A DNA stretch of 36,513 nucleotides from a virus (lineage: Duplodnaviria > Caudoviricetes), in the IMG/VR virus record IMGVR_UViG_3300002301_000007, positions 1 to 36,513 of that record; one strand, 5' to 3'. Shown piece after piece: positions 4,786 through 29,110 of the stretch; the stretch's first letter is position 1; each line of letters starts with the position of its first letter. The position numbers and the translations under genes are program-made. The notes under the pieces were generated by a model. It ran no database searches. It was given only the letters and a program-made list of their open reading frames with translations, and was not told where the DNA came from.

Positions 4786-5505
4786 ATGCAAGACAAAAAA
4801 ATCCTTATTCTTTGCCCTTCCCGCGAACGTCCTGAACTCTGCGAGAAAATGCTTAAATCAATTAAATCGACTTCTTTGAGATCTTCTATCCGATTATTAT
4901 TGGACATGGATGATCCAACGCTTGAGCAGTATAAAGAGCGTTGTTATAAATTTTGCGATAGCATGGTTATTGACTTCCGGCAGCCGATCACAGATCTAAT
5001 CAATAAAAACTTCATGTTTTCCGCAGATTGTTTTGGATGGTTTTCCGTAACCAATGATGATTTCATTTATAAAACTGATGGATGGGATCAGAAGTTGATA
5101 GATCTTTTGGATGGTAAGCCCGGCATTGCTTATGGCAATGATCTAATGCAGGGCCACAACCTGCCAACAACTTCTGTTATTTCCCGGGAGATCCCGGAGT
5201 TGCTTGGATGGTTACAGATGCCAACGCTCACGCATCTATTTGGCGATACCGTTTGGCTGCATCTTGGTATTGGCGCAAAGTGTATTTATTACGCCAAGGA
5301 CGTTATCATTGAGCATTGCCATTACTTCAACAACAAAGCCACGCAAGATGCCATTTACAAGCGCACGAATGGCAAAGAAATGTACGATCACGATGTGCTT
5401 GCTTTTCTGCGTTGGAAACATAACCAATTACCTAAAGAAGTTGAACTGCTCCAAGGATTGCTTGCCGATTATCACGCTGCCCGCGCATTGAACCCAAAAG
5501 ACTAA
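4786..5505 (+). CDS. Glycosyltransferase, GT-A fold (GT2-like)
   Basis: ILILCPSRERPE start, TNDDF metal motif, HLFGDT, IIEHCH. Confidence 0.82.
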   Translation: MQDKKILILCPSRERPELCEKMLKSIKSTSLRSSIRLLLDMDDPTLEQYKERCYKFCDSMVIDFRQPITDLINKNFMFSADCFGWFSVTNDDFIYKTDGWDQKLIDLLDGKPGIAYGNDLMQGHNLPTTSVISREIPELLGWLQMPTLTHLFGDTVWLHLGIGAKCIYYAKDVIIEHCHYFNNKATQDAIYKRTNGKEMYDHDVLAFLRWKHNQLPKEVELLQGLLADYHAARALNPKD

Positions 5506-5520
5506 GCCAAAAGAATTTTC

Positions 5521-5580
5521 TTGACATTGCCCGGCTATCTGTTAAACTTAACGTAACTGGAAACGTAACCGTCAACGTAA
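5521..5580 (+). promoter_or_regulatory. Sigma70-type early promoter with tandem hexamer operator
   Basis: TTGACA-16nt-TAAACT with extended -10 TGn, followed by AACGTAA x3 at a 12-bp period. Confidence 0.75.
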
Positions 5581-5594
5581 AGAAAGGATTGGAT

Positions 5595-5885
5595 ATGAGA
5601 AATACATTCGAGCGTAACCATACAGCAAGCGCATATAGAGGTATCCGAAAACTATTGCGCGGTACGCCCCCGGATCCCGGTATTGCACAGGCCCGGCAAG
5701 AGGTATCGATTCTAAACGGCATCTTAATTAAAGCATTTTTGGTTTTCGCTCTTGTGGTTGCTTTCTGCATTATCGCCAAGGCCGATCAATGCCAAGATCC
5801 TGCATTAAAGCCGGAACTTGTGAAAGCCTGTTATCAGATGGAGAAGGTTTGTAAAGAAATCGGATGCAGCGTTGCGCTGCGTTAA
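5595..5885 (+). CDS. Small membrane protein
   Basis: One hydrophobic helix, Cys-rich C-terminus; AAGGA upstream. Confidence 0.6.
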   Translation: MRNTFERNHTASAYRGIRKLLRGTPPDPGIAQARQEVSILNGILIKAFLVFALVVAFCIIAKADQCQDPALKPELVKACYQMEKVCKEIGCSVALR

Positions 5886-5912
5886 TTAAACAACAATAAA
5901 AAAGGAGCAGAA

Positions 5913-6089
5913 ATGGCAATCGAGTTATTAACAGAGCGTTTGGAAATTCGCTTAACAAAGCGCGACAAAAAGATCGCTCAAAAACTTTCAACCAAATTGA
6001 GCGTTGATCGTAGGATAAGCGAAGCGAAAGTTATGCGCATGGGCCTGATCGATCTCGCGCATAAGCACAACGTAAAAACTGACAGTTAA
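5913..6089 (+). CDS. Ribbon-helix-helix-like DNA-binding protein (58 aa)
   Basis: Not in the ORF track. AAGGAG RBS; MAIELLTERLEIRLTKRDKKIAQKLS..ISEAKVMRMGL fits the beta-alpha-alpha pattern. Confidence 0.7.
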   Translation: MAIELLTERLEIRLTKRDKKIAQKLSTKLSVDRRISEAKVMRMGLIDLAHKHNVKTDS

Positions 6090-6116
6090 ACGAAGTCCCT
6101 ATTCTTTGGAGGCATC

Positions 6117-7559
6117 ATGGAAGCAAAATTAAAGATCACGAAATTACGCATTAAGAATTTGTTTGGCATCAAAGAGTATGAATCGGATGGCAGCGATGTT
6201 GAATTGACAGGAACCAACGGAGCCTGCAAAACTGCCGTCCTTGACGCGATCCGCTATGGTTTCACCAATAAAAGCGATCGCGAATATTTAATCCGCAAGG
6301 GCCAGAGCGAAGGCGAGATATTGATCGAACTTTCCAATGGTCTAAAAATTCTCCGCAAACCCCGCATTGATAAGGCCGATTATCGATCGATCCGCGTTGG
6401 TGAAGATAAGGCAGAAAAATCCGAAGGCTTCTTGCGCGAGATCTTTACCGAACTACAACTCAATCCAATCGATTTCCTGTTTATGACAGAGCAGGAGCAA
6501 AATCGCATTATCTTGGACATGATCGATTTTAAATGGGATCTGAATTGGATCAAAGAGCAGTTTGGCGAAATCGTTCCCGATGTTAATTATGAACAAAATA
6601 TCTTAAACGTCTTGCATGAGATCCAAGCGGACGAAGGATATTATTTTCTCACCCGGCAGGATCTTAACCGCGAAGTCCGCAACAATCTGGCATTCATTGA
6701 AGATATAGGCGCAACACTTCCGCCCGGCTATGATGCAGCGCATTGGGAAGAAATAAGCCTTGGGGATCTCTATAAGAAAATCGCCAAGATCAAGGCTGAC
6801 AATTCCATTATCGAAAAGGCCAAGGCTGCGCTTAAAGATCGCGACGCTAAGATCAAGCAATTCAAAACAGATTTTGAATTGGAGAAGGAACGTTTAATCA
6901 ATAAAGAAAACGAATATCTTTCTCTACAAAATACCGTTATTGCGGATCTTGAAAATAGCCTCATTCAAGCAAAAGAGCGCATAAAAGAGATCCAACGCAA
7001 TGCAACCAAAAACCATGAGATCAACGAATCAAATTATAAAGCCAACATCGCATCGTTTGAAGGGGAAGTTAAAACACATGAGAAGGCAGCAACGCTCGAG
7101 CCGAAGCCATTCAAAGAATTGCAGGACGAAGCCGAGAATGCTGAAAAAATGAAAGCCTTCATCAATGAATATAAGCGCATGATCGAATACCAAAAAGAGA
7201 TCGTTAAGTTAAATAGGAAGGCCGACAAACTCACCGAGAAGATCGAACACGCCCGCGCATTGCCCGGCGTTATCTTGGAAACGTCAAAGATCCCGGTTAA
7301 AGGTTTGTCGATCGTTGATGGGATCCCGCTTATCAAAGGGCTGCCAATATCCAATCTCTGCGAAGGTGATAAGTTGGAATTATGCGTTGAAGTCGCAATG
7401 AAAGGCGTTGACACCTTAAAACTCTTGCTGATCGATGGCGTTGAACGTCTTGCAACTGTCAATCGTGAATCATTGTATAAAATGCTTAAACGCCGGGGCG
7501 TTCAATTCGTCGCCACGCGCACAACGGATGATGAAGATCTAACGGTTATACACCTATGA
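6117..7559 (+). CDS. SMC/Rad50-like coiled-coil ATPase
   Basis: Walker A GTNGACKT, long coiled coil, LCEGDK signature-like motif, Walker B LLLIDG. Confidence 0.85.
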   Translation: MEAKLKITKLRIKNLFGIKEYESDGSDVELTGTNGACKTAVLDAIRYGFTNKSDREYLIRKGQSEGEILIELSNGLKILRKPRIDKADYRSIRVGEDKAEKSEGFLREIFTELQLNPIDFLFMTEQEQNRIILDMIDFKWDLNWIKEQFGEIVPDVNYEQNILNVLHEIQADEGYYFLTRQDLNREVRNNLAFIEDIGATLPPGYDAAHWEEISLGDLYKKIAKIKADNSIIEKAKAALKDRDAKIKQFKTDFELEKERLINKENEYLSLQNTVIADLENSLIQAKERIKEIQRNATKNHEINESNYKANIASFEGEVKTHEKAATLEPKPFKELQDEAENAEKMKAFINEYKRMIEYQKEIVKLNRKADKLTEKIEHARALPGVILETSKIPVKGLSIVDGIPLIKGLPISNLCEGDKLELCVEVAMKGVDTLKLLLIDGVERLATVNRESLYKMLKRRGVQFVATRTTDDEDLTVIHL

Positions 7560-7798
7560 GCGCGCATAATCCTTGTCGATGTGAGGGTAAAGACAGAAAG
7601 AAAAATTGGGTTGTTATCCAACGTAACTGCAATCATTCGGCCTTTAATGGGTATAAAAAAACATGGTCGAGATATTCGCACGTTATTTGCTTAACGCCGG
7701 GCTGCATGGGATCATTCAGAACAAAAAGCGAAATTGTTTTATCATTACCAAGCGCAAAATTAAATGAATATGGACAATGGGAAAGGTTAAGGCTATGA
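7556..7798 (+). CDS. Hypothetical Cys/His-rich protein
   Basis: ATGA coupling on both sides. Confidence 0.65.
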   Translation: MSAHNPCRCEGKDRKKNWVVIQRNCNHSAFNGYKKTWSRYSHVICLTPGCMGSFRTKSEIVLSLPSAKLNEYGQWERLRL

Positions 7799-8064
7799 GC
7801 GACATTGGAAAGATCCCGGTTAAGGGAAAATGTAAATGCGGGCAAGAGATCGTTTGGGTTAAAACAAAGACGGGCCGGAATATGCCCGTCAATGTTCCAA
7901 AATTCGATGATGGCGAAAGCAGGCATGAAGCCATCACAACCGCGATCGAATTTAACCCGGACTATATGACCTCACATTTCGCAACCTGTCCTTTTGCTGC
8001 CAGATTTAGAAAGCCAAAAGAAACAATCATTGGCGATGGCACAACGATTGGCGGTGTCTTGTGA
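7795..8064 (+). CDS. Hypothetical Zn-binding phage protein
   Basis: CKCG..IVW..T..G.MPV and SHFATCP motifs; ATGA-coupled start. Confidence 0.7.
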   Translation: MSDIGKIPVKGKCKCGQEIVWVKTKTGRNMPVNVPKFDDGESRHEAITTAIEFNPDYMTSHFATCPFAARFRKPKETIIGDGTTIGGVL

Positions 8065-8279
8065 AATTCTCTGAACATCCAAAAGTTATCGCTGCTAAGA
8101 AGTTGCTTAAAGAAGCAGAGTTGGAATTTATCGCAGAAGCAAAGGAAAGAGAATCAAACCATCTTTGCCAATGCGGTCATGCCCGAAAAGATCATGGCCC
8201 TGCGCATAGCATTAACTATACAGGCGGATCTTGTAATAAATGCGAATGCCTAAACTTTTTGTTTGACAAACGCCCCTGA
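8061..8279 (+). CDS. Hypothetical Zn-finger protein
   Basis: CQCGH..H..C..C.C; GTGA-coupled start. Confidence 0.65.
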   Translation: MKFSEHPKVIAAKKLLKEAELEFIAEAKERESNHLCQCGHARKDHGPAHSINYTGGSCNKCECLNFLFDKRP

Positions 8280-8316
8280 TCTGATAGAATATCCGTAACA
8301 GTAAACGTAAACGTAA
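8263..8316 (+). promoter_or_regulatory. Sigma70-type promoter with tandem hexamer operator
   Basis: TTGACA-16nt-TAGAAT with TGn, then CCGTAA CAGTAA ACGTAA ACGTAA. Confidence 0.75.
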
Positions 8317-8331
8317 TTAACAGGAGGGAAT

Positions 8332-9249
8332 ATGGGAGCAAACGAATTAAGCGCAGAGGTTATAAAAGAAAAGGGAGCAGCGCAAGATATGATAGTTAGT
8401 CGCGTTGCCCAAGAGGTACAGGCATCAATGATCGTCGCCAAGAAATTTCCCCGGGATGAAAACGAATCGCACAAGAAGATCATGCGCTCATGCGCCCGGA
8501 TCGGATTGGCGCAGGTTGCAGAATATACCTATCCCCGAGGAGATAAGAAGGTTAGCGGGCCATCTATACGTTTGGCAGAGGCCATTGCGCAGGGATGGGG
8601 AAATATTGATTATGGCATCATTGAACTTGAAAACTCCCGGGGAAAATCCGAAATGATGGCTTATGCTTGGGATAAAGAAAGCAATACTCGCGTTACAAAG
8701 GTTTTTAGCGTTGAGCATAAGCGCGATACTCGCCAAGGATCCTATGCCTTGACAGATGCCCGCGACATTTACGAAGCAACGGCAAACTTTGGAGCGCGTC
8801 GCGTCCGGGCCTGCATACTTGGGATCATTCCGGGCGATGTTATCGATGCAGCAATCAAGGAATGCCGAAAGACGATCAAAGGCGAGAATAAAACGCCGAT
8901 CGAGGATCGGATCAAGATAATGCTCACAACGTTTGAAAAGGAGCATCGCATCGATACAGCAGCGATTGAAGAATATATTGGCTGCAAGGTTAAAGCGTTT
9001 ACAGAAAATGATCTCTTTAAATTGCTTGGCATCCATCAATCGATTATGGATGGAATGTCTGCCCCGGCAGATTATTTCGGCAGGCCCGAAGCTGCAAAGC
9101 CAGTTGTTGAGGTCAAGGATGCTCTTGGCGAGAAGAAGGCCAAGGAGTTTGAAGCGATACGAGTTAAACTTCGTAAAACCTATCCTACCGAAGAAGATTG
9201 GCAGATCGATGCCCGGGCCAAAGAGATCCAAGAAGGCGGAGCAAAATGA
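8332..9249 (+). CDS. Putative ssDNA-annealing/recombination protein
   Basis: AKKFPRD and GPSIRLAE motifs; coupled to an exonuclease gene; AGGAGG RBS. Confidence 0.65.
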   Translation: MGANELSAEVIKEKGAAQDMIVSRVAQEVQASMIVAKKFPRDENESHKKIMRSCARIGLAQVAEYTYPRGDKKVSGPSIRLAEAIAQGWGNIDYGIIELENSRGKSEMMAYAWDKESNTRVTKVFSVEHKRDTRQGSYALTDARDIYEATANFGARRVRACILGIIPGDVIDAAIKECRKTIKGENKTPIEDRIKIMLTTFEKEHRIDTAAIEEYIGCKVKAFTENDLFKLLGIHQSIMDGMSAPADYFGRPEAAKPVVEVKDALGEKKAKEFEAIRVKLRKTYPTEEDWQIDARAKEIQEGGAK

Positions 9250-10043
9250 TACTAACATCCGAGAACTATCATTCAAAACCAATGCGCAAAAAATTCTTTG
9301 GCGTTTCTCAATACAAAGATTTTTGCGGAACACTTGGACAACCCGGATGCGAAGCGATGGCCGTCGCCAAGATGAAAGGCGAATGGGAAGAAGAATTAAC
9401 GCTTCCGCTTTTAATAGGATCATACGTTGATGCTCACTTTGAAGGAACTCTCGGAGTTTTCAAAGCGCAGCATCCACAATTATTCAAACGCGATGGCGAT
9501 ATTAAATCTGCATTCGTAAAAGCAAATGACATTATTAAAAGGATCGAACGGGATCCCGTTTTTATGATGCACATGGCAGGCAAGAAGCAGGTTATTTATA
9601 CCGGGATGCTTTTCGGCGTTGAATGGAAAATAAAGATCGATTCGTTTATAAAAAATATCGCAGCCGTTGACTTAAAAATCATGGCATCTTTGCGAGATAC
9701 TTTTTGGGTTAAAGATTATGGCTATATGTCTTTCGTTCCGTTTTGGGGATACGATTTACAGGCAGCCATTTATCAAAAGATCATTGAGATCAATACCGGG
9801 AAGATCGTTCCATTCTATATCGCAGCAGCTTCCAAGGAACCTGTTACCGATATTGAGATCATCGGCTTTAGACAGGGTGATCTTGATGATATTCTTCCAT
9901 CCGTTGAGGCCAACGTAAAAAGGATCGATCAGATCAAAAAGGGAAAGATCACGCCCGATCGATGCGGGATCTGCGATTATTGCAAATCAACAAAAGTATT
10001 AACCAAACCAATTCACTTCTCGGAGTTAATCACTAAAGTTTAA
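9246..10043 (+). CDS. PD-(D/E)XK exonuclease (RecE/DUF3799-like)
   Basis: LTSENYHS start, KIKID..VDLK, GYDLQAAIY, CGICDYC. Confidence 0.88.
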   Translation: MILTSENYHSKPMRKKFFGVSQYKDFCGTLGQPGCEAMAVAKMKGEWEEELTLPLLIGSYVDAHFEGTLGVFKAQHPQLFKRDGDIKSAFVKANDIIKRIERDPVFMMHMAGKKQVIYTGMLFGVEWKIKIDSFIKNIAAVDLKIMASLRDTFWVKDYGYMSFVPFWGYDLQAAIYQKIIEINTGKIVPFYIAAASKEPVTDIEIIGFRQGDLDDILPSVEANVKRIDQIKKGKITPDRCGICDYCKSTKVLTKPIHFSELITKV

Positions 10044-10052
10044 GGATCTCTT

Positions 10053-10322
10053 ATGGAAAATCAGAAAACAGAAATTAAAGAAGTCGATCAAATTGAAATG
10101 AAAGCGATCCTTGATCGTGAGATCCCGAAAGCAAAAGCATTGCTCGAGTTGCCCGGCATAGAAGGCTTTGCGGTTATGGTTGTTTCAAATCGATTTGGCC
10201 TAAAGGCATCAATCCATGCTCCAAACGATGCTGCCTATCAAATCGTTTGCATGATGGATAGGTATCAAGTAAGCATTGCGGACGTTATTAAAAAATATTT
10301 GGAGAAGGGAGGTAAAACATAA
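10053..10322 (+). CDS. Hypothetical protein
   Basis: RBS and operon position. Confidence 0.65.
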   Translation: MENQKTEIKEVDQIEMKAILDREIPKAKALLELPGIEGFAVMVVSNRFGLKASIHAPNDAAYQIVCMMDRYQVSIADVIKKYLEKGGKT

Positions 10323-10492
10323 TGGCAGGAACGCTTGGTTTTATACTAATGTTGGTCTTGTATTTTTTGCCAACTTTAAACGCTTTCCATTCGGGCCATA
10401 AGAACGCGCAATCGATATTTGCGGTTAATCTTTTGTTTGGATGGACGCTGATTGGTTGGGCAGTTGCTTTAATTTGGTCATTGAGTGAATAA
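10322..10492 (+). CDS. imm: Superinfection immunity protein (T4 Imm-like, 56 aa)
   Basis: Not in the ORF track. YFLPT..H.N...IF..NLLFGWTLIGWAVALIWS is the family signature; TAATG coupling. Confidence 0.9.
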   Translation: MAGTLGFILMLVLYFLPTLNAFHSGHKNAQSIFAVNLLFGWTLIGWAVALIWSLSE

Positions 10493-10498
10493 TTTAAC

Positions 10499-10585
10499 TG
10501 ATCGCCCGGCGCGCTTAGACGGCATGGGCCGAAATTAGCACCGCGCCAAACGGCATGGGCCAAATCGGAGGCAATAGGGCGATCA
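10499..10585 (+). other. Structured intergenic element (candidate RNA)
   Basis: 9-bp closing stem TGATCGCCC/GGGCGATCA, inner GGCGCG/CGCGCC stem, two ACGGCATGGGCC copies. Confidence 0.5.
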
Positions 10586-10605
10586 TCCTAATCTTTGGAG
10601 GGTAT

Positions 10606-11076
10606 ATGTTCAAACGTTTAATTAGAAATGCAGTTTTATCGATCATTCAAGAAATATCGAGCAGGCCAAAACCTGTCGGTATTGCGTTATTCAGATCCTA
10701 TACCTCATGTATGGGCATGGGAACAACGTTCGCGCATCCTGATACGCCGTATGTTGGTGGCCCGGGTTTTAACGCATTCGATTATCACGAATTTACTAAA
10801 GATGATATTACAGACGATGTTGATGGCATGATTAAGATCAAGGGCGTTTGGTTCAAAGAAGATGAGGTTTTCTTTTATAGCAATCCTGCATTGACAGACT
10901 ATAAAAAAGTTATGGGCGTTAAATACCCAAGCCTTGGGCCTTGGACTTCTATCCATACGCTTTACGATCATGGGTTAAGCGTTTCTTATGGTTTGTTCGG
11001 AGCAGAGAATCACTTTTACGATCGTAAATTGCGTGAAGAAATCGAAAAGAAAATGCAGGAGATAACTTCAAAATGA
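10606..11076 (+). CDS. Hypothetical protein
   Basis: GGAGG before ATG 10606. Confidence 0.65.
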   Translation: MFKRLIRNAVLSIIQEISSRPKPVGIALFRSYTSCMGMGTTFAHPDTPYVGGPGFNAFDYHEFTKDDITDDVDGMIKIKGVWFKEDEVFFYSNPALTDYKKVMGVKYPSLGPWTSIHTLYDHGLSVSYGLFGAENHFYDRKLREEIEKKMQEITSK

Positions 11077-11399
11077 ACGCCCACAAAGAAGAAAACATTG
11101 ATGAGGCGAAGCGACTTTTTAAGGCTGCCGGGTTTGAATGGGAATCGTTCAATAATGGTTATCATTGGAAAGTCGCGGGCCTTGACTTCTATCCATCGAC
11201 GCATAAATGGATGGATCTCAAAAATGATTTTCGCGGTGAAGGTGTTGAAGAATTTATTAAATACACCCAAGCCCGGAAGCATAAGGAAGTTGCCGGGCGT
11301 ATATTAACAGTTGAGCAGATCTTCGATCTGGCAAAAGGATCCAAAGACAAAAGCCTTTTCGGTATCTGCGAAACAATCCATCGAGGTATATATCCATGA
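11073..11399 (+). CDS. Hypothetical protein
   Basis: ATGA coupling; NNGYHW..DFYPST.KW motif. Confidence 0.7.
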   Translation: MNAHKEENIDEAKRLFKAAGFEWESFNNGYHWKVAGLDFYPSTHKWMDLKNDFRGEGVEEFIKYTQARKHKEVAGRILTVEQIFDLAKGSKDKSLFGICETIHRGIYP

Positions 11400-11629
11400 A
11401 TGCAAATCAAGGACAAAAAGCACAGATCCTAAATCATCTTAAACTTTTCGGCTCGATAACAAGTTGGGAAGCAATAGAGAAATACCATATCACTCGATTG
11501 AGTGAATATATTAGGTCGCTTCGCAATGATGACGGATTAAGAATAACTGATGCTTGGAAAGAAAAAGATGGTAAGCATTGGAAAGAATATTATTTATCAA
11601 CAAATGACGGCCAATTAAGTTTTGCATAG
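11396..11629 (+). CDS. Winged HTH protein (HTH_39-like)
   Basis: ILNHL..GSITSWEA....ITRLS.YI..LR pattern. Confidence 0.8.
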   Translation: MNANQGQKAQILNHLKLFGSITSWEAIEKYHITRLSEYIRSLRNDDGLRITDAWKEKDGKHWKEYYLSTNDGQLSFA

Positions 11630-11637
11630 GAGGATTT

Positions 11638-11829
11638 ATGGAGAAGTCGCCAATTCATGCGCAAGTTATCGATAGGTTTAAAAACGAACTTCTCATTGTT
11701 CTTGTTAGGAGGCTTGGAGGAAAAGTATCTATTCCCTGCAATGAAATCGACGCTACCGAAGGAACGGCTTTAAAATTTAATATTGATGCGCAAAGAAATT
11801 TTAATTTTGAATTGGTATATAAAAAATAG
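11638..11829 (+). CDS. Hypothetical protein
   Basis: AGGAGG RBS. Confidence 0.65.
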   Translation: MEKSPIHAQVIDRFKNELLIVLVRRLGGKVSIPCNEIDATEGTALKFNIDAQRNFNFELVYKK

Positions 11830-11840
11830 AGAGGAAAACT

Positions 11841-12086
11841 ATGGGAAAAGGCAAAGGATGGCAGAACGATAATATGGAAAGAGAACTTCATTCGATCAAG
11901 TGGATTGACAATAATACCGCAACTCGCTTAACCAATGAAGTTAATTTGCATTGTGAGATCTTTGACGAAGGTGGTCTTTGGTCTATTAAATTGCTCGGCA
12001 CAGCAGATCACGAACACCATCTTGTCGAGGATGCAGCAATTTTATTAAAAAAGATGGCAGAGGTTAAATGTGGAGGTGGGCATTGA
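11841..12086 (+). CDS. Hypothetical protein
   Basis: GAGG RBS, operon position. Confidence 0.55.
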   Translation: MGKGKGWQNDNMERELHSIKWIDNNTATRLTNEVNLHCEIFDEGGLWSIKLLGTADHEHHLVEDAAILLKKMAEVKCGGGH

Positions 12087-12271
12087 AAAACACAATGAAG
12101 CAAGCCATGATTAAAGTTTCGGATGTTCCTGAAATCCCGGGCCGTCTTTTTCAAGTCATGGTTCCATTATATCAAATCGAGCGCGATCGTTTTTGGCAAT
12201 ATCGCGTTATTTGGTGGTTAATTGTTTTGGTTTGGAAAAACAAAATCACAAAGACAGGAGGAATAAATTGA
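12083..12271 (+). CDS. Hypothetical protein
   Basis: GGAGG then TTG overlapping the upstream stop; start uncertain. Confidence 0.45.
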   Translation: MKNTMKQAMIKVSDVPEIPGRLFQVMVPLYQIERDRFWQYRVIWWLIVLVWKNKITKTGGIN

Positions 12272-12639
12272 AAAGACAAGAAGAAAGAAATATCCAAATA
12301 GTTTTTGTAGGATGGATCCGGGACAACTATCCAGAGGTTATAACGATAATTAGTCCTATCGTTAAGTTTGGTGGATCTCCAACGCAAAGACTTATCCAAG
12401 GACGAACGCAAAAATTAATGGGTTACATGAAAGGAACGCTTGATATTTTCTTTCCACATCCCCGCAATGGATTTCATGGCCTATTTATAGAGTTAAAGCA
12501 AGAGGATGGGTCAACATCGGTGGAGCAAAAAGATATGATCCAACGTCTTAACGTTCTTGGTTATGTCGCAGTTTCGGCCTATGGGCTTAATGAGGCCCGC
12601 AGGATCTTCCAAGAATATTATCTTGGTAAATTTCAATGA
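12268..12639 (+). CDS. VRR-NUC nuclease (Holliday junction resolvase-like)
   Basis: EE..Q, G..KGTLD, GLFIELK, S.EQK motifs; AGGAGG plus TTG start. Confidence 0.85.
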   Translation: MKRQEERNIQIVFVGWIRDNYPEVITIISPIVKFGGSPTQRLIQGRTQKLMGYMKGTLDIFFPHPRNGFHGLFIELKQEDGSTSVEQKDMIQRLNVLGYVAVSAYGLNEARRIFQEYYLGKFQ

Positions 12640-12866
12640 CAAAATTACAGATCAAACAAATCGCTGCGCAGGCTTCAAACAACGAGAGCAGATCTTGTAA
12701 AGGCAAAGTTCGATACAAAAGCCTAAAGGCCATCAAGAATGCGATCGAACAGATTAAGCAAAAACGCAGCGTTCAAATAAAAGGATTTAATAACGAAGCC
12801 TATCATTGCCAGTTTTGTGATGGTTGGCATTTAGGAAATAAGGTGAAATATGCAAAAAACGCATGA
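12636..12866 (+). CDS. Hypothetical Zn-binding phage protein
   Basis: C.GK.RY and AYHCQFCDGWHL motifs. Confidence 0.7.
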   Translation: MTKLQIKQIAAQASNNESRSCKGKVRYKSLKAIKNAIEQIKQKRSVQIKGFNNEAYHCQFCDGWHLGNKVKYAKNA

Positions 12867-13362
12867 ATTAAAAATCTTGCCCTATTGGTTTAAGGCTTTA
12901 CGCGACGGAAGAAAAAAGTTTGAAGTAAGATTAAATGATCGCGACTATAGCCCCGGAGATCTTGTGGTCTTTAAAGAGTTTACAGTTGAGAATCAACAAT
13001 ATACAGGAGAAAGATATTGGGCGCAGATTGGCTTTGTTCAAGAACTTGGCCCCGGAATAAAAGAGTGTTACTGCGTCTTTGGCATTGAGCATGGATCCCG
13101 GATACAAAAGAGGAAATATAATAAAATTTATCGCTTGAATCATAACGAAAAAAGAAACAAGGATCGCAAGAATAATTACTCAAAATCTCGTCCAGAAAAA
13201 AGAAAAAGTAACGCTTGGACAGAAGCCGATATAAATAAATTGCGTCTTGCTCATTGGCATAAAACAGATCGTCAATTAGCAAAAGAATTAGCAAGATCAG
13301 TTCAAGCGATTCAACAAAAAAGATATAAATTAAATCTTGACGCAAAAAAGAATCTCATTTAA
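12850..13362 (+). CDS. ASCH/DUF3850-like domain fused to a C-terminal HTH-like domain
   Basis: HELKILP..F....G.KKFEVR.NDRDY..GD; C-terminal WTEAD..L..TDRQLAKELARSVQAIQ. Confidence 0.8.
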   Translation: MQKTHELKILPYWFKALRDGRKKFEVRLNDRDYSPGDLVVFKEFTVENQQYTGERYWAQIGFVQELGPGIKECYCVFGIEHGSRIQKRKYNKIYRLNHNEKRNKDRKNNYSKSRPEKRKSNAWTEADINKLRLAHWHKTDRQLAKELARSVQAIQQKRYKLNLDAKKNLI

Positions 13363-13365
13363 ACT
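13337..13365 (+). promoter_or_regulatory. Sigma70-type promoter facing the origin
   Basis: TTGACG-17nt-TAAACT. Confidence 0.6.
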
Positions 13366-13373
13366 TTTAACCA

Positions 13374-13535
13374 TGTCTTGCGAAAAAGGAAAACATGAAA
13401 GCAAACCAAACCATCACATATCCGTCGATTAATAGTCGTCGGCTTTTTTATGCCCGCAAGGGCGAGATCCCCGGTTCCTTTCTCGCAAGACAGGATTCGA
13501 GAGCCTTAAAACAGCTTTCCCGGGGATTCTTTTTG
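13374..13535 (+). ncRNA. Candidate antisense/attenuator leader RNA
   Basis: 17/18 complementarity between 13374-13391 and 13475-13492; GCCC-GCAA-GGGC hairpin; ATCCCCGG/CCGGGGAT stem; two U-tracts. Confidence 0.5.
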
Positions 13536-13536
13536 T

Positions 13537-13793
13537 TGTGCATAACATTGCATAACCTGTTGATAACTCAACTTCCCAATGCTTATATATATGGCAGCAA
13601 AGTTATCCACATATTAACAGCCCCTACTACTACTATTTTCCTCTTTCGAGGATCGAAAAGCAGCAGTATTAGTAAAGCGATTGCCTGTGGATAACTTGAT
13701 AAAAAATGTCGTAACTAAACAAAAGAGCAATAACTTACAACAATTCACAATCTGTTAATATCCTGTGCATAACCTGTTAACAGTTGTGGATAA
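13537..13793. promoter_or_regulatory. oriC-like replication origin (DnaA boxes plus DnaA-trios)
   Basis: Perfect TTATCCACA at 13603, 13686(rc), 13785(rc); TTATGCACA(rc) at 13537 and 13764; degenerate boxes at 10-11-bp phasing; CTACTACTACTA at 13624-13635. Confidence 0.85.
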
Positions 13794-13809
13794 CTTAAAA
13801 GGAGATCGT

Positions 13810-14358
13810 ATGCCAGTTGTAGCCCCAATGCCAGTAACAGTTTACGCTAAATATGAATTTAGCGAAGATGAAAAGAAGCAGTTAGGCCAAGAATTAGCCG
13901 GGAAGATCGACCGGGCCGAAGGATTAAAGACGGAAAAGAAAAGCCTTGTTTCAGAGATTAATGAGCGTATCGATGGCGCGCTTAATGATATTAAAAAGAT
14001 CTCGAGCAATATCAACCTTGGATTTGAAACAAGATCCTATACCTGCAAGGTTGAGAAAAATTTTAAATTGAAGATCAAAGAGTATTACTGTATCCATTCC
14101 GGCAAGTTGATCGAAACAAAGAAATTTGAACCGCATGACTTCCAACAAACCTTCGATGATGTAAAGCAAGATGATAAAAAAGAGATCTCAAAATCCGGGA
14201 AGGATATAAATCCATCGATAGGACAAGGACTTGATATTTTAGCGACCAAGGAAGAAAAGAAAAAGGCCGTTGGCAAAGCGTTTGATAAAGAAGCAACAAA
14301 GATCTTAAATAAAGCTGGGATCAAAAAGAACGGTCAACCATCAAAGGCGAAAAAATGA
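13810..14358 (+). CDS. Hypothetical coiled-coil protein
   Basis: AAGGAG before ATG 13810. Confidence 0.7.
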   Translation: MPVVAPMPVTVYAKYEFSEDEKKQLGQELAGKIDRAEGLKTEKKSLVSEINERIDGALNDIKKISSNINLGFETRSYTCKVEKNFKLKIKEYYCIHSGKLIETKKFEPHDFQQTFDDVKQDDKKEISKSGKDINPSIGQGLDILATKEEKKKAVGKAFDKEATKILNKAGIKKNGQPSKAKK

Positions 14359-14780
14359 TATTGATCGTCTATCTTGTGGTTTGCGCGCTTATCACGCATT
14401 GCGATTTAATGTTCCGCATGATCCCTGACCGATTTGTTTTGGTTGGAATTATTGGAGCAATGATATTAAATTGCGATCGATCTCTTGGGTTTATTGGATC
14501 CGTTGAAGGAATGCTGATCGGCGGTGGATCTATCTTTATCGCAGGCATCCTTTGTTTTCTTATATCGAAGAAGCCCGCGCTTGGTGGTGGGGATCTTAAA
14601 TTACTTGCCATGATCGGCGCATTTTGGGGATGGCAGGTTGCTTTAACAACCTTTGCCATCGCCCCGATCATGGGATCACTTTGGGCCGGGATCCTGAATC
14701 GAACAAAATTGCCTTATGGAATCTTTTTAATCGTGGCATCATTTATTGCCTTAATTATTGGGAGAGTTTATGGATATTAA
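14355..14780 (+). CDS. A24-family (prepilin) aspartic peptidase, short TadV/CpaA-like form
   Basis: Multi-TM; catalytic Asp motifs HCDLMFRMIPD and LGGGDLKLLAMIGAF; C-terminal LPYG. Confidence 0.93.
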   Translation: MILIVYLVVCALITHCDLMFRMIPDRFVLVGIIGAMILNCDRSLGFIGSVEGMLIGGGSIFIAGILCFLISKKPALGGGDLKLLAMIGAFWGWQVALTTFAIAPIMGSLWAGILNRTKLPYGIFLIVASFIALIIGRVYGY

Positions 14781-15597
14781 AGTTTCGCTGTTTGCTTCTG
14801 CTGTCCGGATACCATTTTATAAAGTGTTTCTAGATTCTTTGGTTGGAACGACGGAGAAGATCGAAGTTGTTTTCTGTGGCCCGAATACTGAAAAAGAGAT
14901 CATGGAAGGCTTTCCCGGCTGCCTTTTTATAAAAGAGGAAGATTTTATAACCGAAGGGTTTTTAACAACGATGAATTATAAGGGAATCTTGTTTAAATAT
15001 CTTCATTCCAAAAATATCAAACCTGCGCAATGTTACGAAGCTGCGCGCCGGGCCTGTCGTGGTGAAACAATCGCTTGGACGGCTGACGATGCAGAGCATA
15101 CGCCAGATTTATACGGCAAAGCATATCGATTTTGGAAAGATCTTAATAATGAGAAAGCAATCCTTTCAATCCAAACCGAAGAAAATGGTATGTACTGCAA
15201 TATGAAAGTTCATTCCTTTTTTGGCTGCCAGTTCCATACGCCGTTAATGGCTCCGCTTGCCCTTATGTCCGGGGCTTATTGCGAGAAACTTGGCGGATTT
15301 GATAGACGATATATATGTGGACAATATGAAAATGAGTGTGTTATGATGGCCGTTGCAGATGGAGGATGTGTAAAAATATTTGGAGATAGAGAAAATAAAA
15401 TCATCCTCGATCACTATCGCAGGCATGGAATAAAACGGCCCTTTGCCACAGGATATAATCATGATCGAGAGATCCTTGAAAAATCTTGGACAGATGGTAA
15501 AGGTAAAGTTTCTTTAGTTCGGAATGATAACCATGAGCCATATGAATCAGAAGGGATTTTAGAAACCTCTCAATCTTATAAAGGACAATGGGAATAA
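14770..15597 (+). CDS. Glycosyltransferase, GT-A fold
   Basis: VSLFASAVR, CRGE.IAWTADD, LGGFDRRY. Confidence 0.8.
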   Translation: MDIKVSLFASAVRIPFYKVFLDSLVGTTEKIEVVFCGPNTEKEIMEGFPGCLFIKEEDFITEGFLTTMNYKGILFKYLHSKNIKPAQCYEAARRACRGETIAWTADDAEHTPDLYGKAYRFWKDLNNEKAILSIQTEENGMYCNMKVHSFFGCQFHTPLMAPLALMSGAYCEKLGGFDRRYICGQYENECVMMAVADGGCVKIFGDRENKIILDHYRRHGIKRPFATGYNHDREILEKSWTDGKGKVSLVRNDNHEPYESEGILETSQSYKGQWE

Positions 15598-16002
15598 ATG
15601 CCAAGTGGAATTTATAAAAGAAAGCCTGAACAAATTAAAGCACTCGTGGAAATGAACAAGTCGATTTCTCATCGCAAAAAAGTTAGCAAGTCTTTAATAG
15701 GACATAAATTCACAAAAGAAACACTTAAAAAAATGAGCAAAAATCATGCCGATTTTAATGGTGATAAAAACCCTAATTGGAAAGGCGATAAAGTTGGAGT
15801 TATTGGAGTCCATATTTGGTTAAAAAAATATTTTAAAAAAACTATGATTTGTTATTTTTGTAGGAAGAAATGCCTTACAGATTATGCTTTACTTAAAGGT
15901 AAAAAATATCAAAGAATGCGTGAAAATTTTGTCGAATTATGCCGTAAATGTCATGTTCATTACGATAGAAATATCACAACCTACATTGTGGAGGGTAAAT
16001 GA
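15598..16002 (+). CDS. NUMOD3/HNH homing-endonuclease-like protein
   Basis: GHKFTKETLKKMS, NPNWKG, CYFC..LCRKCH; AT-rich. Confidence 0.8.
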   Translation: MPSGIYKRKPEQIKALVEMNKSISHRKKVSKSLIGHKFTKETLKKMSKNHADFNGDKNPNWKGDKVGVIGVHIWLKKYFKKTMICYFCRKKCLTDYALLKGKKYQRMRENFVELCRKCHVHYDRNITTYIVEGK

Positions 16003-16964
16003 GCGAAAACATACTAATTACAGGAATTACGGGATCCGGTGGATCTTACCTTGCCGACTATATTCTCGAATATCATCCCCGCGTTAAGATCTTCGGCCTG
16101 CATCGATGGCATTCCGCAGGAACATTAAACAATATCGAACATATAAAGGATAAGATAACCGTCCTTGAATGCGATCTCTTGGATCTTTCATCCATAATCC
16201 GGGCCTTAGAGATCTCTAAGCCTTCGCGGATATTTCACCTCGCAGCCTTTGCAAATGTTCGCAAGTGTTTTGATACCCCGATCGCAGTTGTTAATAATAA
16301 CACGATGGGAACCGCAAATCTTCTTGAGGGGATCCGATTAGTTTGCCCGGAAACTGTTTTGCAAATGTGTTCAACTTCCGAGATCTATGGCAATCCTCTT
16401 AATTTCCCCATGACCGAGCAACATCCAATGAAACCTGTTAATCCCTATTCGGCTTCTAAATTAGCGCAGGAGGCTTTATCTTATGCTTATTTTAAATCAT
16501 TCAACCTCAAGGCTATTATTACAAGGATGTTTGCTTATATTAACCCCCGTCGAAGGGATTTGTTTGCTACTGCTTTTGCGTATCAGATCGCAGAAATTGA
16601 AGCGGGAAAGAGGAAATTTTTATCTCATGGGAATCTTGATAGTATTCGTACCCTTATTGATGTTCGCGACGCTATGCGCTCTTATTGGATAGCATCGGAA
16701 CAATGCGTTTTCGGTGAAGCATATAATATCGGCGGAGTTGATGTTATTTCTGTTGGCGATTTCCTTGAGATATTAAAAAAGCATTCCAAGGTTGAGATCA
16801 TATCCAAACAAGATCCCGCGCTCATGCGCCCGGTGGATGTTACCAAACAGATCCCGGATACAACAAAATTTGATGCTTTAACAGGCTTTAAATGCAAATA
16901 TTCTCTCGACAATTCTGTTGATTTCCTTCTTGAGCAAGTAAGAAGGGAGGTTAACGCAAAATGA
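15999..16964 (+). CDS. GDP-mannose 4,6-dehydratase / GDP-6-deoxy-hexulose reductase family SDR (Gmd/Rmd-like)
   Basis: LITGITGSGGSYLA, FHLAA, STSEIYG, PYSASK, GNLDSIR, LMRPVD. Confidence 0.88.
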   Translation: MSENILITGITGSGGSYLADYILEYHPRVKIFGLHRWHSAGTLNNIEHIKDKITVLECDLLDLSSIIRALEISKPSRIFHLAAFANVRKCFDTPIAVVNNNTMGTANLLEGIRLVCPETVLQMCSTSEIYGNPLNFPMTEQHPMKPVNPYSASKLAQEALSYAYFKSFNLKAIITRMFAYINPRRRDLFATAFAYQIAEIEAGKRKFLSHGNLDSIRTLIDVRDAMRSYWIASEQCVFGEAYNIGGVDVISVGDFLEILKKHSKVEIISKQDPALMRPVDVTKQIPDTTKFDALTGFKCKYSLDNSVDFLLEQVRREVNAK

Positions 16965-17050
16965 TATTTATATTTGTCGGCATCTTCTTTTTAGGATTTA
17001 TTGTTGGCGGGACAACTGTTTTTATGTTAATCATTCGCAATTTTAAATAG
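16961..17050 (+). CDS. 29-aa single-helix membrane peptide
   Basis: GGAGG plus ATGA coupling; MIFIFVGIFFLGFIVGGTTVFMLIIRNFK. Confidence 0.5.
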   Translation: MIFIFVGIFFLGFIVGGTTVFMLIIRNFK

Positions 17051-17058
17051 GAGCAAGC

Positions 17059-17202
17059 ATGACACAGGACGAATTTAAAAAAGTTCTATTGGACGAGATA
17101 ACCTCGCATCCAAAGACAACATGGATCCCATACGCAGATGCTTGCGCTATCGTGGATGTAACGTTTGAAACGTTAAAAAAATTAAGCGAGGAGATTAAGT
17201 GA
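17059..17202 (+). CDS. Hypothetical 47-aa protein
   Basis: AGGAG RBS; stop overlaps the next GTG. Confidence 0.55.
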   Translation: MTQDEFKKVLLDEITSHPKTTWIPYADACAIVDVTFETLKKLSEEIK

Positions 17203-17561
17203 ATTGCTTAGATTGTGGGAAAATTACTTCTATAAAGAGCAAAGCAAGATGTATTTCTTGCGCAAATCGTCATAGAAACATAACACATAGAGGCGATAAA
17301 AGTTATTTTTGGAAAGGAAAAGACGCTTCTTATGTGCAAAAACATAAATGGATCAATCAAATTTTAGGGCAAGCCACTTTTTGCAACGAACCTAATTGCT
17401 CAAAAACTTCAAATTTTTATGAATGGGGAAACATTTCGGGTAAGTACCTTCGTGATGTTTCAGATTATAGGTCAATGTGTCATTCTTGTAATATAAAAAT
17501 GGACAATAGAAAGAGAGATAAAAATGGAGTATTTATTAAGCGTTCTTGTTCCGTCTATTAG
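17199..17561 (+). CDS. HNH homing-endonuclease-like protein
   Basis: CLDCG..RCISC, WKG, H.WI, YEWGNISG, MCHSC. Confidence 0.75.
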   Translation: MNCLDCGKITSIKSKARCISCANRHRNITHRGDKSYFWKGKDASYVQKHKWINQILGQATFCNEPNCSKTSNFYEWGNISGKYLRDVSDYRSMCHSCNIKMDNRKRDKNGVFIKRSCSVY

Positions 17562-18375
17562 GCCAAATAATTTACAAAGACTTTATGAATCTATAGAAAG
17601 GTCATTTTTTGGAAGTTTTGAAATGATTGTGATTGGGCCATATCCTTTGCCTGATGTATTGAAGGATAAGAAAAATATTAAATGGATTGAGGATTTTGGC
17701 TCACCTATCAGAGCGCAACAAATTGGATTAAATCATGTGCGGGGAGTTTTTGTTTCGTGGGCAGCGGACGACGGATTCTTTCTTGATAACGCATTAACCA
17801 TTGCATTCAATAAATTCTTTGAAGGCGTGATCGATGCTGCCGTTGCTAAAAACCATGAAGTCATTTTGAAGGCAATGGATTGGCATGACTCTCCCGGGAT
17901 CGCATTCGATTATAAGAAACTCGTCATGGGTAAATATCAAGAAGGGCCACGATTAAACGATGGCATGGAAAAGGATTGGTATTATATTTTATCAAACCAT
18001 GAGTCAATGAAGATGCCCGGTGTTATTAAAGGATTTTATATGCTTAACGTCGGTCTTGTGCCAACTAAACTTTTGCTTGAGGTTGGCGGTTGGGATGCTG
18101 CAAGTTTTGAAGTTTGTCCAATGGCGTACAACGATTGCGCTCTGCGTCTGCAAAACTTTGGCGTTGAGTTTTTAATCCAAGATGAAATGATGTTTTCCTG
18201 CTCTCACTTGCCCGGACTATCGGGAGATCATGGCCCGATACATAACGCGCAAACATATCACGACGAGCCATTGTTTAAAACAATTTATAAAGATCATGCG
18301 GTAACAAGAATATTTATCGATCTTGATAACTGGAAGCAAGCCCCGGATCGATGGCAAAGGAGGTTCGGAAAATGA
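17524..18375 (+). CDS. Glycosyltransferase, GT-A fold
   Basis: LSVLVPSIRP, RG.FVSWAADD, EVGGWD, DCALRLQ. Confidence 0.85.
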   Translation: MEYLLSVLVPSIRPNNLQRLYESIERSFFGSFEMIVIGPYPLPDVLKDKKNIKWIEDFGSPIRAQQIGLNHVRGVFVSWAADDGFFLDNALTIAFNKFFEGVIDAAVAKNHEVILKAMDWHDSPGIAFDYKKLVMGKYQEGPRLNDGMEKDWYYILSNHESMKMPGVIKGFYMLNVGLVPTKLLLEVGGWDAASFEVCPMAYNDCALRLQNFGVEFLIQDEMMFSCSHLPGLSGDHGPIHNAQTYHDEPLFKTIYKDHAVTRIFIDLDNWKQAPDRWQRRFGK

Positions 18376-18581
18376 AACTTATACCATTTAGGATCAAGAG
18401 AAGTGATATTGATCGTCTTATCCACAACCTGCAACACTTAAAGAAAATGTGCGATAAGCAAGACAACCCTCGTCTTGTTTCAGTAAATCTTTTAGAGGCC
18501 AAAAGCGACAAGAAGATCCTTGGCGTATTTCCTCAAAAGCATTACCGGGTTGTTGTGAGCATTGATCGGATGAATCAATGA
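18372..18581 (+). CDS. Hypothetical protein
   Basis: ATGA coupling. Confidence 0.55.
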   Translation: MKLIPFRIKRSDIDRLIHNLQHLKKMCDKQDNPRLVSVNLLEAKSDKKILGVFPQKHYRVVVSIDRMNQ

Positions 18582-18754
18582 GTTCCCAACGTAAGATTTG
18601 CCAACGATGCCGTTGCGAAGTAAAAATTAAGAAAACCCTTACTTATGCCATGGCTATGAGATTTGATATTTCTTGCAGTTGTGTATCAACCCATGGATGG
18701 AGCGAGAAACAGGCATTGAAAGAGTACGCCAAAAAACAAAAGGAGAATCCATGA
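18578..18754 (+). CDS. Hypothetical 58-aa Cys-rich protein
   Basis: Not in the ORF track; ATGA-coupled at both ends; CQRC..CSC. Confidence 0.55.
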   Translation: MSSQRKICQRCRCEVKIKKTLTYAMAMRFDISCSCVSTHGWSEKQALKEYAKKQKENP

Positions 18755-19029
18755 TTAAGAAAATGATTAAGGGCAACAACTTGGAAGTTTATACAGTTGA
18801 AATGACAACCGAAGAATTGGGCCAGTTGATAGATAATGTCATTGAAGCGGTTGACAAATCAAAATTTGGCCCGGTCATGGAATATGGCGGAACGGCTATG
18901 CAGCCTCAAAAGGTCGTTAATCAAGTCGCTTTCCCGGTGTTTTTGCAGGTTTTGACTTCTCTTTTAGGCGATGTTGACACCGTTACCTTGATCCCCGATG
19001 GCCCCAAGTCTGATTTAAGCCTGAATTAA
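18751..19029 (+). CDS. Hypothetical protein
   Basis: AAGGAG before ATG 18751. Confidence 0.6.
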   Translation: MIKKMIKGNNLEVYTVEMTTEELGQLIDNVIEAVDKSKFGPVMEYGGTAMQPQKVVNQVAFPVFLQVLTSLLGDVDTVTLIPDGPKSDLSLN

Positions 19030-19081
19030 CGTTTCACGTTTTATTTCACATAAACTTTAATGTTTATGTTAAACTAAATAC

Positions 19082-19408
19082 ATGATAAAAACTAAAAAGA
19101 CAACTTGCTCCAAATGTAATATATCACCTCACGCAAAAAATTCTAAATACTGCAATGCCTGTCATGCTGCAAATATGAGGGTTTGGCGCATAACTCATGT
19201 GCTTAACCCTCTACAACGTAAGAAAATGGTTTGTCGTAGTTACACTCATGTTTATTTGAAGCGCGGGAAATTAACTAAACAACCTTGTGAAGTCTGCGGA
19301 GATCCTAAATCCCAAATACACCATGACGATTACGATAAACCGCTTGAAGTCCGTTGGTTTTGCAGGCCCCACCACTTAAAAAACCACAAAGAAAATCCCG
19401 GGCTTTAA
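19082..19408 (+). CDS. HNH-like nuclease
   Basis: PCEVCG..IHHDDYDKPLEVRWFCRPHH. Confidence 0.8.
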   Translation: MIKTKKTTCSKCNISPHAKNSKYCNACHAANMRVWRITHVLNPLQRKKMVCRSYTHVYLKRGKLTKQPCEVCGDPKSQIHHDDYDKPLEVRWFCRPHHLKNHKENPGL

Positions 19409-28823: not shown

Positions 28824-29110
28824 TTCGCTGCATCCTCTTGGTTCTTTGTAGGATCCTTTGAAGGATCCACAACTACGCGCCGGGCATCAATTACCTTTGC
28901 CAACTTTAAACCGTCAAGATGCGCCAAAGGTTGATATTTGTCGATGATAATATTATTTACTTCCTCTGTTACTCGGCCCAATTCGTTATGCGGATTAGCG
29001 ATTAACGCTTTGATATTCAAAGTTGAAAGGATCTTATCAACCTCGTTTAATACGTCTGCGTTTATCGCATCGATGCCGTCTAAATGTTTATGCAATGCCT
29101 GACTAAGCAT
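28820..29110 (-). CDS. Hypothetical helical protein
   Basis: Overlap-coupled on both sides. Confidence 0.6.
   Translation of the reverse strand: MLSQALHKHLDGIDAINADVLNEVDKILSTLNIKALIANPHNELGRVTEEVNNIIIDKYQPLAHLDGLKLAKVIDARRVVVDPSKDPTKNQEDAAK

What the first reader, a model, noticed from the sequence alone, without database searches (positions are those of the whole stretch)
13537..13793. Bacterial oriC mimic in a phage lacking any replication initiator
Seen: three perfect TTATCCACA boxes (13603, 13686, 13785), two TTATGCACA (13537, 13764) and degenerate boxes in helically phased arrays (13537/13547/13558 and 13753/13764/13775/13785). They sit where a replication gene would be expected, and I recognise no initiator, helicase, primase or polymerase anywhere. 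Inference: the genome replicates as a mini-chromosome on host DnaA alone, possibly as a plasmid-like prophage since there is no integrase. It could alternatively titrate DnaA away from the host origin.
Basis: partly seen in the sequence, partly recalled or inferred. Interest (0 to 1): 0.85.

Follow-up and report, generated by a model that had tools for sequence, protein, structure and literature searches.

The report
Phage carries host-type DnaA replication origin
A complete uncultured tailed phage carries the full DNA layout that bacteria use to open their chromosome origin and has no recognisable replication gene, so it likely starts copying itself with the host's own initiator protein DnaA, a route not found described for phages.

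Summary
The boxes are real: 6 within 260 bp against at most 3 in 300 shuffles. Box 13603 is followed by a second box, a GC run and four CTA repeats (DnaA-trios), the basal unwinding system of bacterial oriC. A weaker second module faces it from box 13686. The same facing layout occurs in 49 of 120 bacterial genome hits. The window is a complete siphovirus with no initiator, helicase, primase or polymerase found. Close relatives lack the element, and at least one has an initiator gene instead. Across IMG/VR, 22 of 42 distinct box-plus-trio hits sit in box arrays, against 0 of 20 with reversed trios. Best reading (0.68): an origin opened by host DnaA. Against it: 2 of 8 other complete lineages with the element also have a probable initiator, profiles can miss initiators, and skew does not mark the site. 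A plasmid prophage is unsupported (no ParA, no repressor hit). Host unknown. Nine paper searches found no demonstration; this scan noted similar elements before in other phages.

The parts
13537..13566 (-). Left phased DnaA-box array: 13537 (1 mismatch), 13547 (3), 13558 (1)
   Evidence: a 35-nt copy of the right array at 71% identity
13603..13619 (+). Tandem box pair of the left unwinding module: perfect box 13603-13611 and overlapping degenerate box 13611-13619
   Evidence: same position as the second box in the matrix from dnaA-adjacent chromosomal origins
13620..13638 (+). GC run (13620-13623) then four CTA repeats (13624-13635) and a fifth in-register N-T-N triplet: DnaA-trios read on the - strand
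   Evidence: sequence; spacing equals the commonest chromosomal spacing, 13 of 39; 40.4 bits, rank 1 of 72,954 positions, next 8.3 (partly by construction)
13644..13658 (.). Central palindrome with a GATC (13651-13654); average duplex stability, not AT-rich
   Evidence: sequence; stability near the genome median
13655..13675 (-). Second, facing trio tract: seven in-register triplets with the central base conserved, two of the three nearest the box match the trio consensus
   Evidence: 7 triplets, reached at 0.09% of window positions; only 7.5 bits on the fixed-spacing matrix, so weaker than the left module
13686..13694 (-). Perfect DnaA box of the right (facing) module; 12-bp perfect inverted repeat with the 13603 box
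13695..13752 (.). AT-rich tract, among the least stable 1-2% of 60-bp windows
   Evidence: 98.4 and 99.0 percentile at 13690 and 13700
13753..13793 (-). Right phased DnaA-box array: 13753 (3 mismatches), 13764 (1), 13775 (4), 13785 (0); ends just before the ribosome-binding site of the gene at 13810
13337..13529 (+). Possible control leader upstream of the origin: promoter-like site, 23-nt inverted repeat covering a ribosome-binding site, terminator-like hairpin, three-way-junction fold. Link to the origin is inferred only
   Evidence: no Rfam family
13395..13694 (+). 99-codon frame with a good ribosome-binding site that runs through the origin and stops inside box 13686; may not be a gene
   Evidence: no family hit
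6117..10043 (+). Recombination module: SMC/RecF-like ATPase, phrog_3657 protein, PD-(D/E)XK exonuclease; candidate for late recombination-dependent replication (inferred)
12193..12639 (+). VRR-NUC / Holliday junction resolvase-like gene

Best explanation
The stretch 13537-13793 has the layout of a bacterial chromosome origin (phased DnaA-box arrays, a box pair with DnaA-trios, a second facing module) and is likely the phage's replication origin, predicted to be opened by host DnaA with no phage initiator. Shown: the layout, its match to chromosomal origins, the complete phage genome, and the lack of detectable replication genes. Inferred from the B. subtilis work: the outer arrays gather DnaA-ATP, the pair at 13603/13611 loads a DnaA filament on the trio strand and melts the duplex, and host helicase, primase and polymerase follow. 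More speculative: the facing module at 13686 does the same on the other strand, giving two forks; later rounds move to recombination-dependent or rolling-circle replication using the phage's own recombination genes, which would free the phage from once-per-cycle control of DnaA.
For: (1) Cluster far above chance. (2) Box pair + trios is the minimal unit DnaA unwinds in vitro (PMC6669920 passages); three trios next to the boxes suffice and the central base matters (10.1101/2022.03.18.484894 passages); the left module has four perfect repeats at the commonest chromosomal spacing. (3) The facing layout is used at bacterial loci: 49 of 120 GTDB pattern hits pass my two-sided test, and 39 of the 120 have dnaA within 3 kb. 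(4) No replication gene by Pfam and PHROG scans of 64 frames, NCBIfam of 28 window frames, six-frame family searches or 17 phage replication proteins searched against all six frames at E<0.5; the two largest unexplained early proteins are predicted not to be winged-helix initiators. (5) Three near-complete relatives have no box cluster or trio module; G036 has an initiator gene and G034 a probable truncated one. (6) Phages with the same recombination genes: 11 of 14 distinct loci have an initiator-type gene within 7 kb (50 of 83 listed frames scanned), 0 of 80 loci have 4 or more boxes in 400 bp. (7) Polarity control: 22 of 42 distinct viral box+trio hits lie in arrays of 4 or more boxes, 0 of 20 with the trios reversed; none of the 32 records tested has dnaA.
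Against: No experiment. Of 8 other distinct lineages with the element and at least 90% complete, 2 have a probable initiator (G028 DnaD-like; G018 HTH_36 gene right after the element) and 2 have their own polymerase A, so the element does not imply that DnaA acts alone; gokushoviruses carry it beside their own Rep. Profiles miss initiators: relative G033 has neither boxes nor any confirmed initiator. The small winged-helix protein at 11396 is unassigned. GC skew follows gene direction and does not switch at the site. The DNA between the trio tracts is not AT-rich, unlike most chromosomal cases. No close relative carrying the element was available, so its conservation is untested.
Confidence: 0.68

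Rival explanations
1. DnaA-assisted origin: host DnaA binds and helps, but a phage protein that profiles cannot recognise (for example the 77-aa winged-helix protein at 11396) is needed to fire it, as in plasmids that use Rep together with DnaA.
For: G018 has an HTH_36 gene directly after its element and G028 has a DnaD-like initiator. In L037 a gene of the same HTH_39 family lies directly before the element. G033 shows that an initiator can escape the profiles.
Against: No iteron-like repeat family other than DnaA boxes in the region. No hit with 17 phage replication proteins. The HTH_39 protein is far shorter than the initiators found here (165-300 aa), and G033, which has no boxes, has a short frame that looks winged-helix-like by eye directly before its candidate initiator (no family hit).
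Confidence: 0.13
2. DnaA sink or transcription switch: the boxes soak up DnaA to stall the host chromosome, or let DnaA control the operon starting at 13810; the phage starts replication another way.
For: The right array ends next to the ribosome-binding site of 13810. T5-like phages carry eight conserved DnaA boxes with a proposed non-origin role (10.1101/866236 abstract). Lactococcus 949-group phages have phased box arrays without clear trios.
Against: Binding or titration does not need trios in the right polarity and spacing. A phage with no replication genes needs some origin, and the matrix finds no other candidate.
Confidence: 0.12
3. Single-strand priming signal: on displaced single strands the two facing boxes pair into a hairpin whose stem rebuilds a double-stranded DnaA box, loading host helicase and primase (like the DnaA-dependent 'ABC' priming system; recalled, not read).
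For: 13600-13700 folds into one long hairpin closed by the 12-bp box stem (z -4.1 with RNA parameters). Single-stranded gokushoviruses carry box-plus-trio arrays.
Against: Any facing pair of modules folds this way by symmetry, and chromosomal loci share the layout. The outer phased arrays only work as double-stranded DNA.
Confidence: 0.04
4. Assembly chimera or a passively captured piece of host oriC without function.
For: One record in the phage collection that matched the element is a host contig with a dnaA-like gene beside the boxes (L296; recognised by eye). Conservation in close relatives could not be tested.
Against: The record is a complete circle with 45-bp terminal repeats. One 36.4-kb contig spans 9000-19000 with no joint or difference (may be the source sample). 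Flanking genes are phage genes, no dnaA or other host origin gene. Same design in 22 distinct viral loci.
Confidence: 0.03

Closest known systems
Basal unwinding system (BUS) of bacterial oriC, B. subtilis incC boxes 6/7 plus DnaA-trios (Richardson et al. 2019, PMC6669920, passages read; 10.1101/2022.03.18.484894, passages read)
   Same: Tandem box pair, short spacer, in-register trios on the correct strand, extra distal boxes.
   Different: On a phage, with no dnaA gene; a second module faces the first; the DNA just beyond the trios is not AT-rich.
Chromosomal loci with two facing box-plus-trio modules seen here in GTDB (Ktedonobacteria and other Chloroflexota, Poribacteria, Dependentiae, Atribacterota, Dictyoglomota)
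   Same: Two modules 53-83 bp apart between the boxes (74 here); some have a palindromic centre (L173, L256, L264).
   Different: Their centre is mostly AT-rich; many lie beside dnaA. One paper search for this layout listed nothing describing it; I did not read the broader BUS survey papers.
DnaA-box arrays of T5-like phages (Davison, 10.1101/866236; abstract and outline seen)
   Same: Conserved, ordered host DnaA boxes in a non-coding phage region.
   Different: Proposed as an injection stop, not an origin; T5 encodes its own replication proteins (recalled); no trios mentioned in the abstract.
Lambda O-type and DnaD-like phage initiators; iteron plasmids using Rep plus DnaA (PMC10797057 passages; otherwise recalled)
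   Same: Host helicase, primase and polymerase are borrowed; DnaA boxes can be present.
   Different: They encode their own initiator and iterons; none found here. That review says published data do not show DnaA binding the single-stranded unwinding element of plasmids.
Ori-Finder predictions in phage genome papers: phage G (PMC12484599), PseuGes_254 (PMC11512268), phiKSM96 (PMC10713843); passages read
   Same: Software-predicted phage origins with DnaA boxes; for phage G a DnaA trio is listed.
   Different: Untested predictions in passing; phage G has its own polymerases, helicases and primases; no claim of DnaA as the only initiator in the passages seen.

Membership tests
BUS-type oriC | Consensus DnaA box with a tandem partner next to the trios | tested here: met
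   13603 perfect, 13611 degenerate; fits the chromosomal matrix
BUS-type oriC | Three or more in-register DnaA-trios in the correct polarity and spacing | tested here: met
   four CTA repeats, spacing equal to the mode of 39 dnaA-adjacent loci; polarity control
BUS-type oriC | Distal DnaA boxes that raise local DnaA | tested here: met
   two phased arrays
BUS-type oriC | AT-rich DNA beyond the trios | tested here: inconclusive
   centre is of median stability; an AT-rich tract lies 60 bp further, beyond box 13686
BUS-type oriC | Located on a chromosome, usually beside dnaA | tested here: not met
   complete phage record, no dnaA
BUS-type oriC | DnaA-ATP-dependent strand separation and origin activity | not testable with these tools
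   needs biochemistry
BUS-type oriC | GC-skew switch at the site | tested here: not met
   skew turns at the gene-direction switches near 4.7 and 19 kb; fourfold sites show no switch at 13.65 kb; weak test in a 36-kb genome
Initiator-encoding phage replicon (lambda O, DnaD-like, replisome organiser) | Own initiator gene | tested here: inconclusive
   none found, but G033 shows that profiles can miss one
Initiator-encoding phage replicon (lambda O, DnaD-like, replisome organiser) | Iterons distinct from DnaA boxes | tested here: not met
   repeat families in 13300-13900 are box copies or short two-copy matches; rest of genome not scanned
Phage-plasmid (P1/N15 type) | Partition ATPase, Rep protein, repressor | tested here: not met
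   no AAA_31/ParA, no Rep or CI-type hit
DnaA titration locus (datA-like; recalled) | Box cluster without an unwinding module | tested here: not met
   trio tracts present; titration as a side effect is not excluded

The most novel reading that the evidence does not exclude
Many unrelated phages have replaced their initiator gene with a swappable chromosome-type origin and replicate as DnaA-fired mini-chromosomes; this one uses a two-sided unwinding module, also found on chromosomes of several little-studied phyla, in which each half opens one strand and so loads one helicase per fork.
Probability: 0.35. Interest if true: 0.88.

Novelty: new variant of a known kind. Interest (0 to 1): 0.7.

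Why it matters
If true, some phages need no initiator gene at all: a 260-bp copy of the host origin design replaces it, which ties phage replication to host DnaA-ATP levels, sets host range by origin compatibility, and puts phage and chromosome in competition for DnaA. It would explain where phages 'without replication genes' start. The facing pair of unwinding modules offers a compact substrate for the open question of how two helicases are loaded at a bacterial origin, and it can be tested with oligonucleotides and purified DnaA.

Tried and rejected
Relatives through the gene after the origin: none in viral or metagenome contigs; five protein homologues without DNA context. Epimerase as single query found none; its alignment did. 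Metagenome scan for the facing layout: 119 loci, none with a clear match to this phage's early genes. Host: not found; closest cultured terminases about 30% identical, prepilin-peptidase and epimerase homologues carry no organism names. No RNA holder listed. dif site: an inverted repeat at 19044-19074 has a XerD-like arm (motif recalled) but 10 bases between the arm cores; rejected as canonical dif. Rfam: nothing above chance at 12800-14400. Structure searches for the 13810 and 10603 proteins gave no significant match; the 13810 model is low confidence (pLDDT 54). G033's 165-aa candidate initiator could not be confirmed. GC skew gave no support. The matrix score of the left module is partly circular, since the training loci were picked with a pattern taken from it; the spacing mode, second box and GC run were not imposed. 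Primase was covered only by whole-library scans and AAA_25; serine integrases were not searched in six frames.

Full report
What the window is. It is a complete virus record with direct terminal repeats (45 bp). It encodes terminase, portal, scaffold, tail tube, tape measure and Dit, so a siphovirus. Early genes run on the + strand from 4786 to 19408: a recombination module (SMC/RecF-like ATPase, phrog_3657, PD-(D/E)XK exonuclease), a superinfection-immunity protein, a 77-aa winged-helix protein, a resolvase-like nuclease, then, after the element, a prepilin-peptidase-like protein and sugar-modifying genes. A run recorded as freshwater holds the whole stretch in one 36.4-kb contig with no joints or differences over 9000-19000; it may be the source of this record, so it is not independent.

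The observation. Six boxes with at most one mismatch fall in 260 bp; 300 shuffles gave at most three. Sites 13547 and 13753 have three mismatches and 13775 four. The cluster fills the largest gap between my gene calls.

What was missed. Box 13603 is followed by an overlapping degenerate box, a GC run and four CTA repeats. This is the basal unwinding system: in B. subtilis a box pair plus adjacent DnaA-trios is enough for DnaA-ATP to separate strands, and distal boxes raise local DnaA (PMC6669920, passages); three trios next to the boxes suffice and the central base is critical (10.1101/2022.03.18.484894, passages). A matrix from 34 distinct sequences at 39 dnaA-adjacent bacterial loci scores this site 40.4 bits, rank 1 of 72,954, the next site 8.3; its spacing is the commonest one (13 of 39). 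The score is partly by construction because the loci were picked with a pattern drawn from this site. From box 13686 on the other strand a second tract of seven in-register triplets faces the first; such a run occurs at 0.09% of window positions, but it scores only 7.5 bits at fixed spacing and has no tandem box, so it is less certain. The DNA between the tracts is a short palindrome of average stability; an AT-rich tract lies at 13695-13752.

The facing layout on chromosomes. 39 of 120 have dnaA within 3 kb and 49 of 120 have trio runs on both sides by my rule, among them Ktedonobacteria, Chloroflexia, Poribacteria, Dependentiae, Atribacterota and Dictyoglomota. So the phage copies a design that bacteria use; it does not single out a host.

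No replication genes found. Pfam and PHROG scans of 64 frames, a lax Pfam scan of 18 window frames, NCBIfam of 28, six-frame searches for DnaA, DnaB_C, HTH_36, phrog_270, polymerase A and AAA_25 and 17 phage replication proteins against all six frames found nothing. The two largest unexplained early proteins fold as a long helical hairpin with strands (13810; low confidence) and a small beta barrel (10603; best Z 3.3), not as winged-helix initiators. The limit of this evidence: relative G033 has no boxes and only an unconfirmed 165-aa candidate initiator, so profiles can miss such genes.

Relatives. G033 and G036 share the head and tail genes (terminase 60-64%, portal 48%); G034 shares only the sugar-modifying block. 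None of the three has a box cluster or trio module. G036 has an initiator gene between its exonuclease and resolvase (phrog_1408, E 1e-32); G034 has a probable one cut by the contig end (E 7e-4); G033 is temperate with an integrase. Among phages with the same recombination genes (80 loci), none has four boxes in 400 bp. From 20 loci picked by hand, 14 were distinct; 11 of the 14 have an initiator-type gene within 7 kb (50 of 83 listed frames scanned; L065, L071, L107 had none). This fits exchange of an initiator gene for a cis-acting origin, but no close relative with the element was found, so its conservation is untested.

Other phages. The pattern box + 7-16 bases + three TAC repeats hit 53 IMG/VR contigs, 42 distinct; 22 of the 42 lie in arrays of four or more boxes within 300 bp. 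With the repeats reversed there were 95 hits, 20 distinct, none in an array (15 of the 95 loci may hold less flank). None of the 32 clustered records tested has dnaA; the control rang in 13 of 14 genomes. Ten are at least 90% complete, eight lineages. G003, G022, G025 and G030 show no replication gene (a few tail-region and repeated frames not scanned). G006/G029 and G012/G017 have polymerase A but no hit to the initiator or helicase families tested. G028 has a DnaD-like initiator and G018 an HTH_36 gene right after the element. None of the eleven, this one included, has a tyrosine integrase or ParA. Gut gokushoviruses carry the same module beside their Rep gene. So the module is widespread and polarity-specific, but it is not confined to phages without an initiator.

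Mechanism. Most likely host DnaA-ATP gathers on the outer arrays, is loaded from the 13603/13611 pair onto the trios, melts the duplex and brings in the host helicase and replisome (0.68). A second filament from 13686 and a later switch to recombination-dependent replication are inferences without direct evidence. Rivals: a hidden phage helper (0.13), a DnaA sink or transcription switch (0.12), single-strand priming (0.04), chimera or relic (0.03). GC skew gives no support. The plasmid-prophage idea has only the missing integrase for it; partition genes, repressor and dif site were not found; I put it near 0.25.

Literature. Nine searches found no paper showing a phage origin fired by DnaA alone or describing trios in phages beyond an Ori-Finder prediction for phage G. 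T5's DnaA boxes are proposed as an injection stop (abstract). The library lacks most subscription papers, including the classic review of phage replication modules (recalled, not read), so absence from print is not established. This scan has noted similar elements in other phages, one with two mirror-image halves; these are unchecked notes and are not counted as support.

Verdict. A real, chromosome-type unwinding module in a phage: a new variant of a known element with an untested but well-supported role as a host-DnaA origin. Interest 0.7.

Noticed in passing
L293:3400-3800 (KT264804) and L295:4180-4400 (MG945381): Gut gokushoviruses (single-stranded DNA, own Rep) carry DnaA-box arrays with a box pair, GC run, trios and AT-rich tract in their non-coding region; one paper search found nothing on it.
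   Followed up: partly
L155-L274 (GTDB loci): Two facing box-plus-trio modules at probable chromosome origins of Ktedonobacteria, Chloroflexia, Poribacteria, Dependentiae, Atribacterota and Dictyoglomota; 49 of 120 hits.
   Followed up: partly
L294:2490-2880 (Lactococcus phage 949) and L297:2500-2580 (AM1): Cultured Lactococcus 949-group phages have phased perfect DnaA boxes beside AT-rich DNA, without clear trios: a laboratory model for phage DnaA arrays.
   Followed up: no
window 13337-13529: Leader with promoter-like site, terminator-like hairpin, three-way fold and a 23-nt inverted repeat that would hide the ribosome-binding site of the frame running through the origin; recalls P1 c4 / P4 CI antisense control (recalled); no Rfam hit.
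   Followed up: partly
window 14355-14780: Phage-borne prepilin peptidase catalytic domain (PF01478), possibly acting on the host's type IV pili.
   Followed up: partly
window 4786-5505, 14758-18375, 29103-29813: Glycosyltransferase-like genes and a GDP-mannose dehydratase-like gene, one inside the head-tail block; shared with relatives G033, G034, G036; suggests sugar decoration of virion, DNA or host surface.
   Followed up: no
window 19044-19074: Near-perfect 12-bp inverted repeat with a XerD-like arm but non-canonical spacing, in very AT-rich DNA before an endonuclease gene.
   Followed up: partly
G018 29409-30661 (L139:11409-12661): A complete high-GC phage with the unwinding module directly followed by a winged-helix gene of about 390 aa: possibly a phage initiator or DnaA helper.
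   Followed up: partly
L296 (MT835860): A record filed as bacteriophage looks like a host contig with oriC and a dnaA-like gene start (by eye).
   Followed up: no
window 5913-6089: 58-aa protein that looks like a ribbon-helix-helix regulator at the head of the early operon (by eye; no family hit).
   Followed up: no
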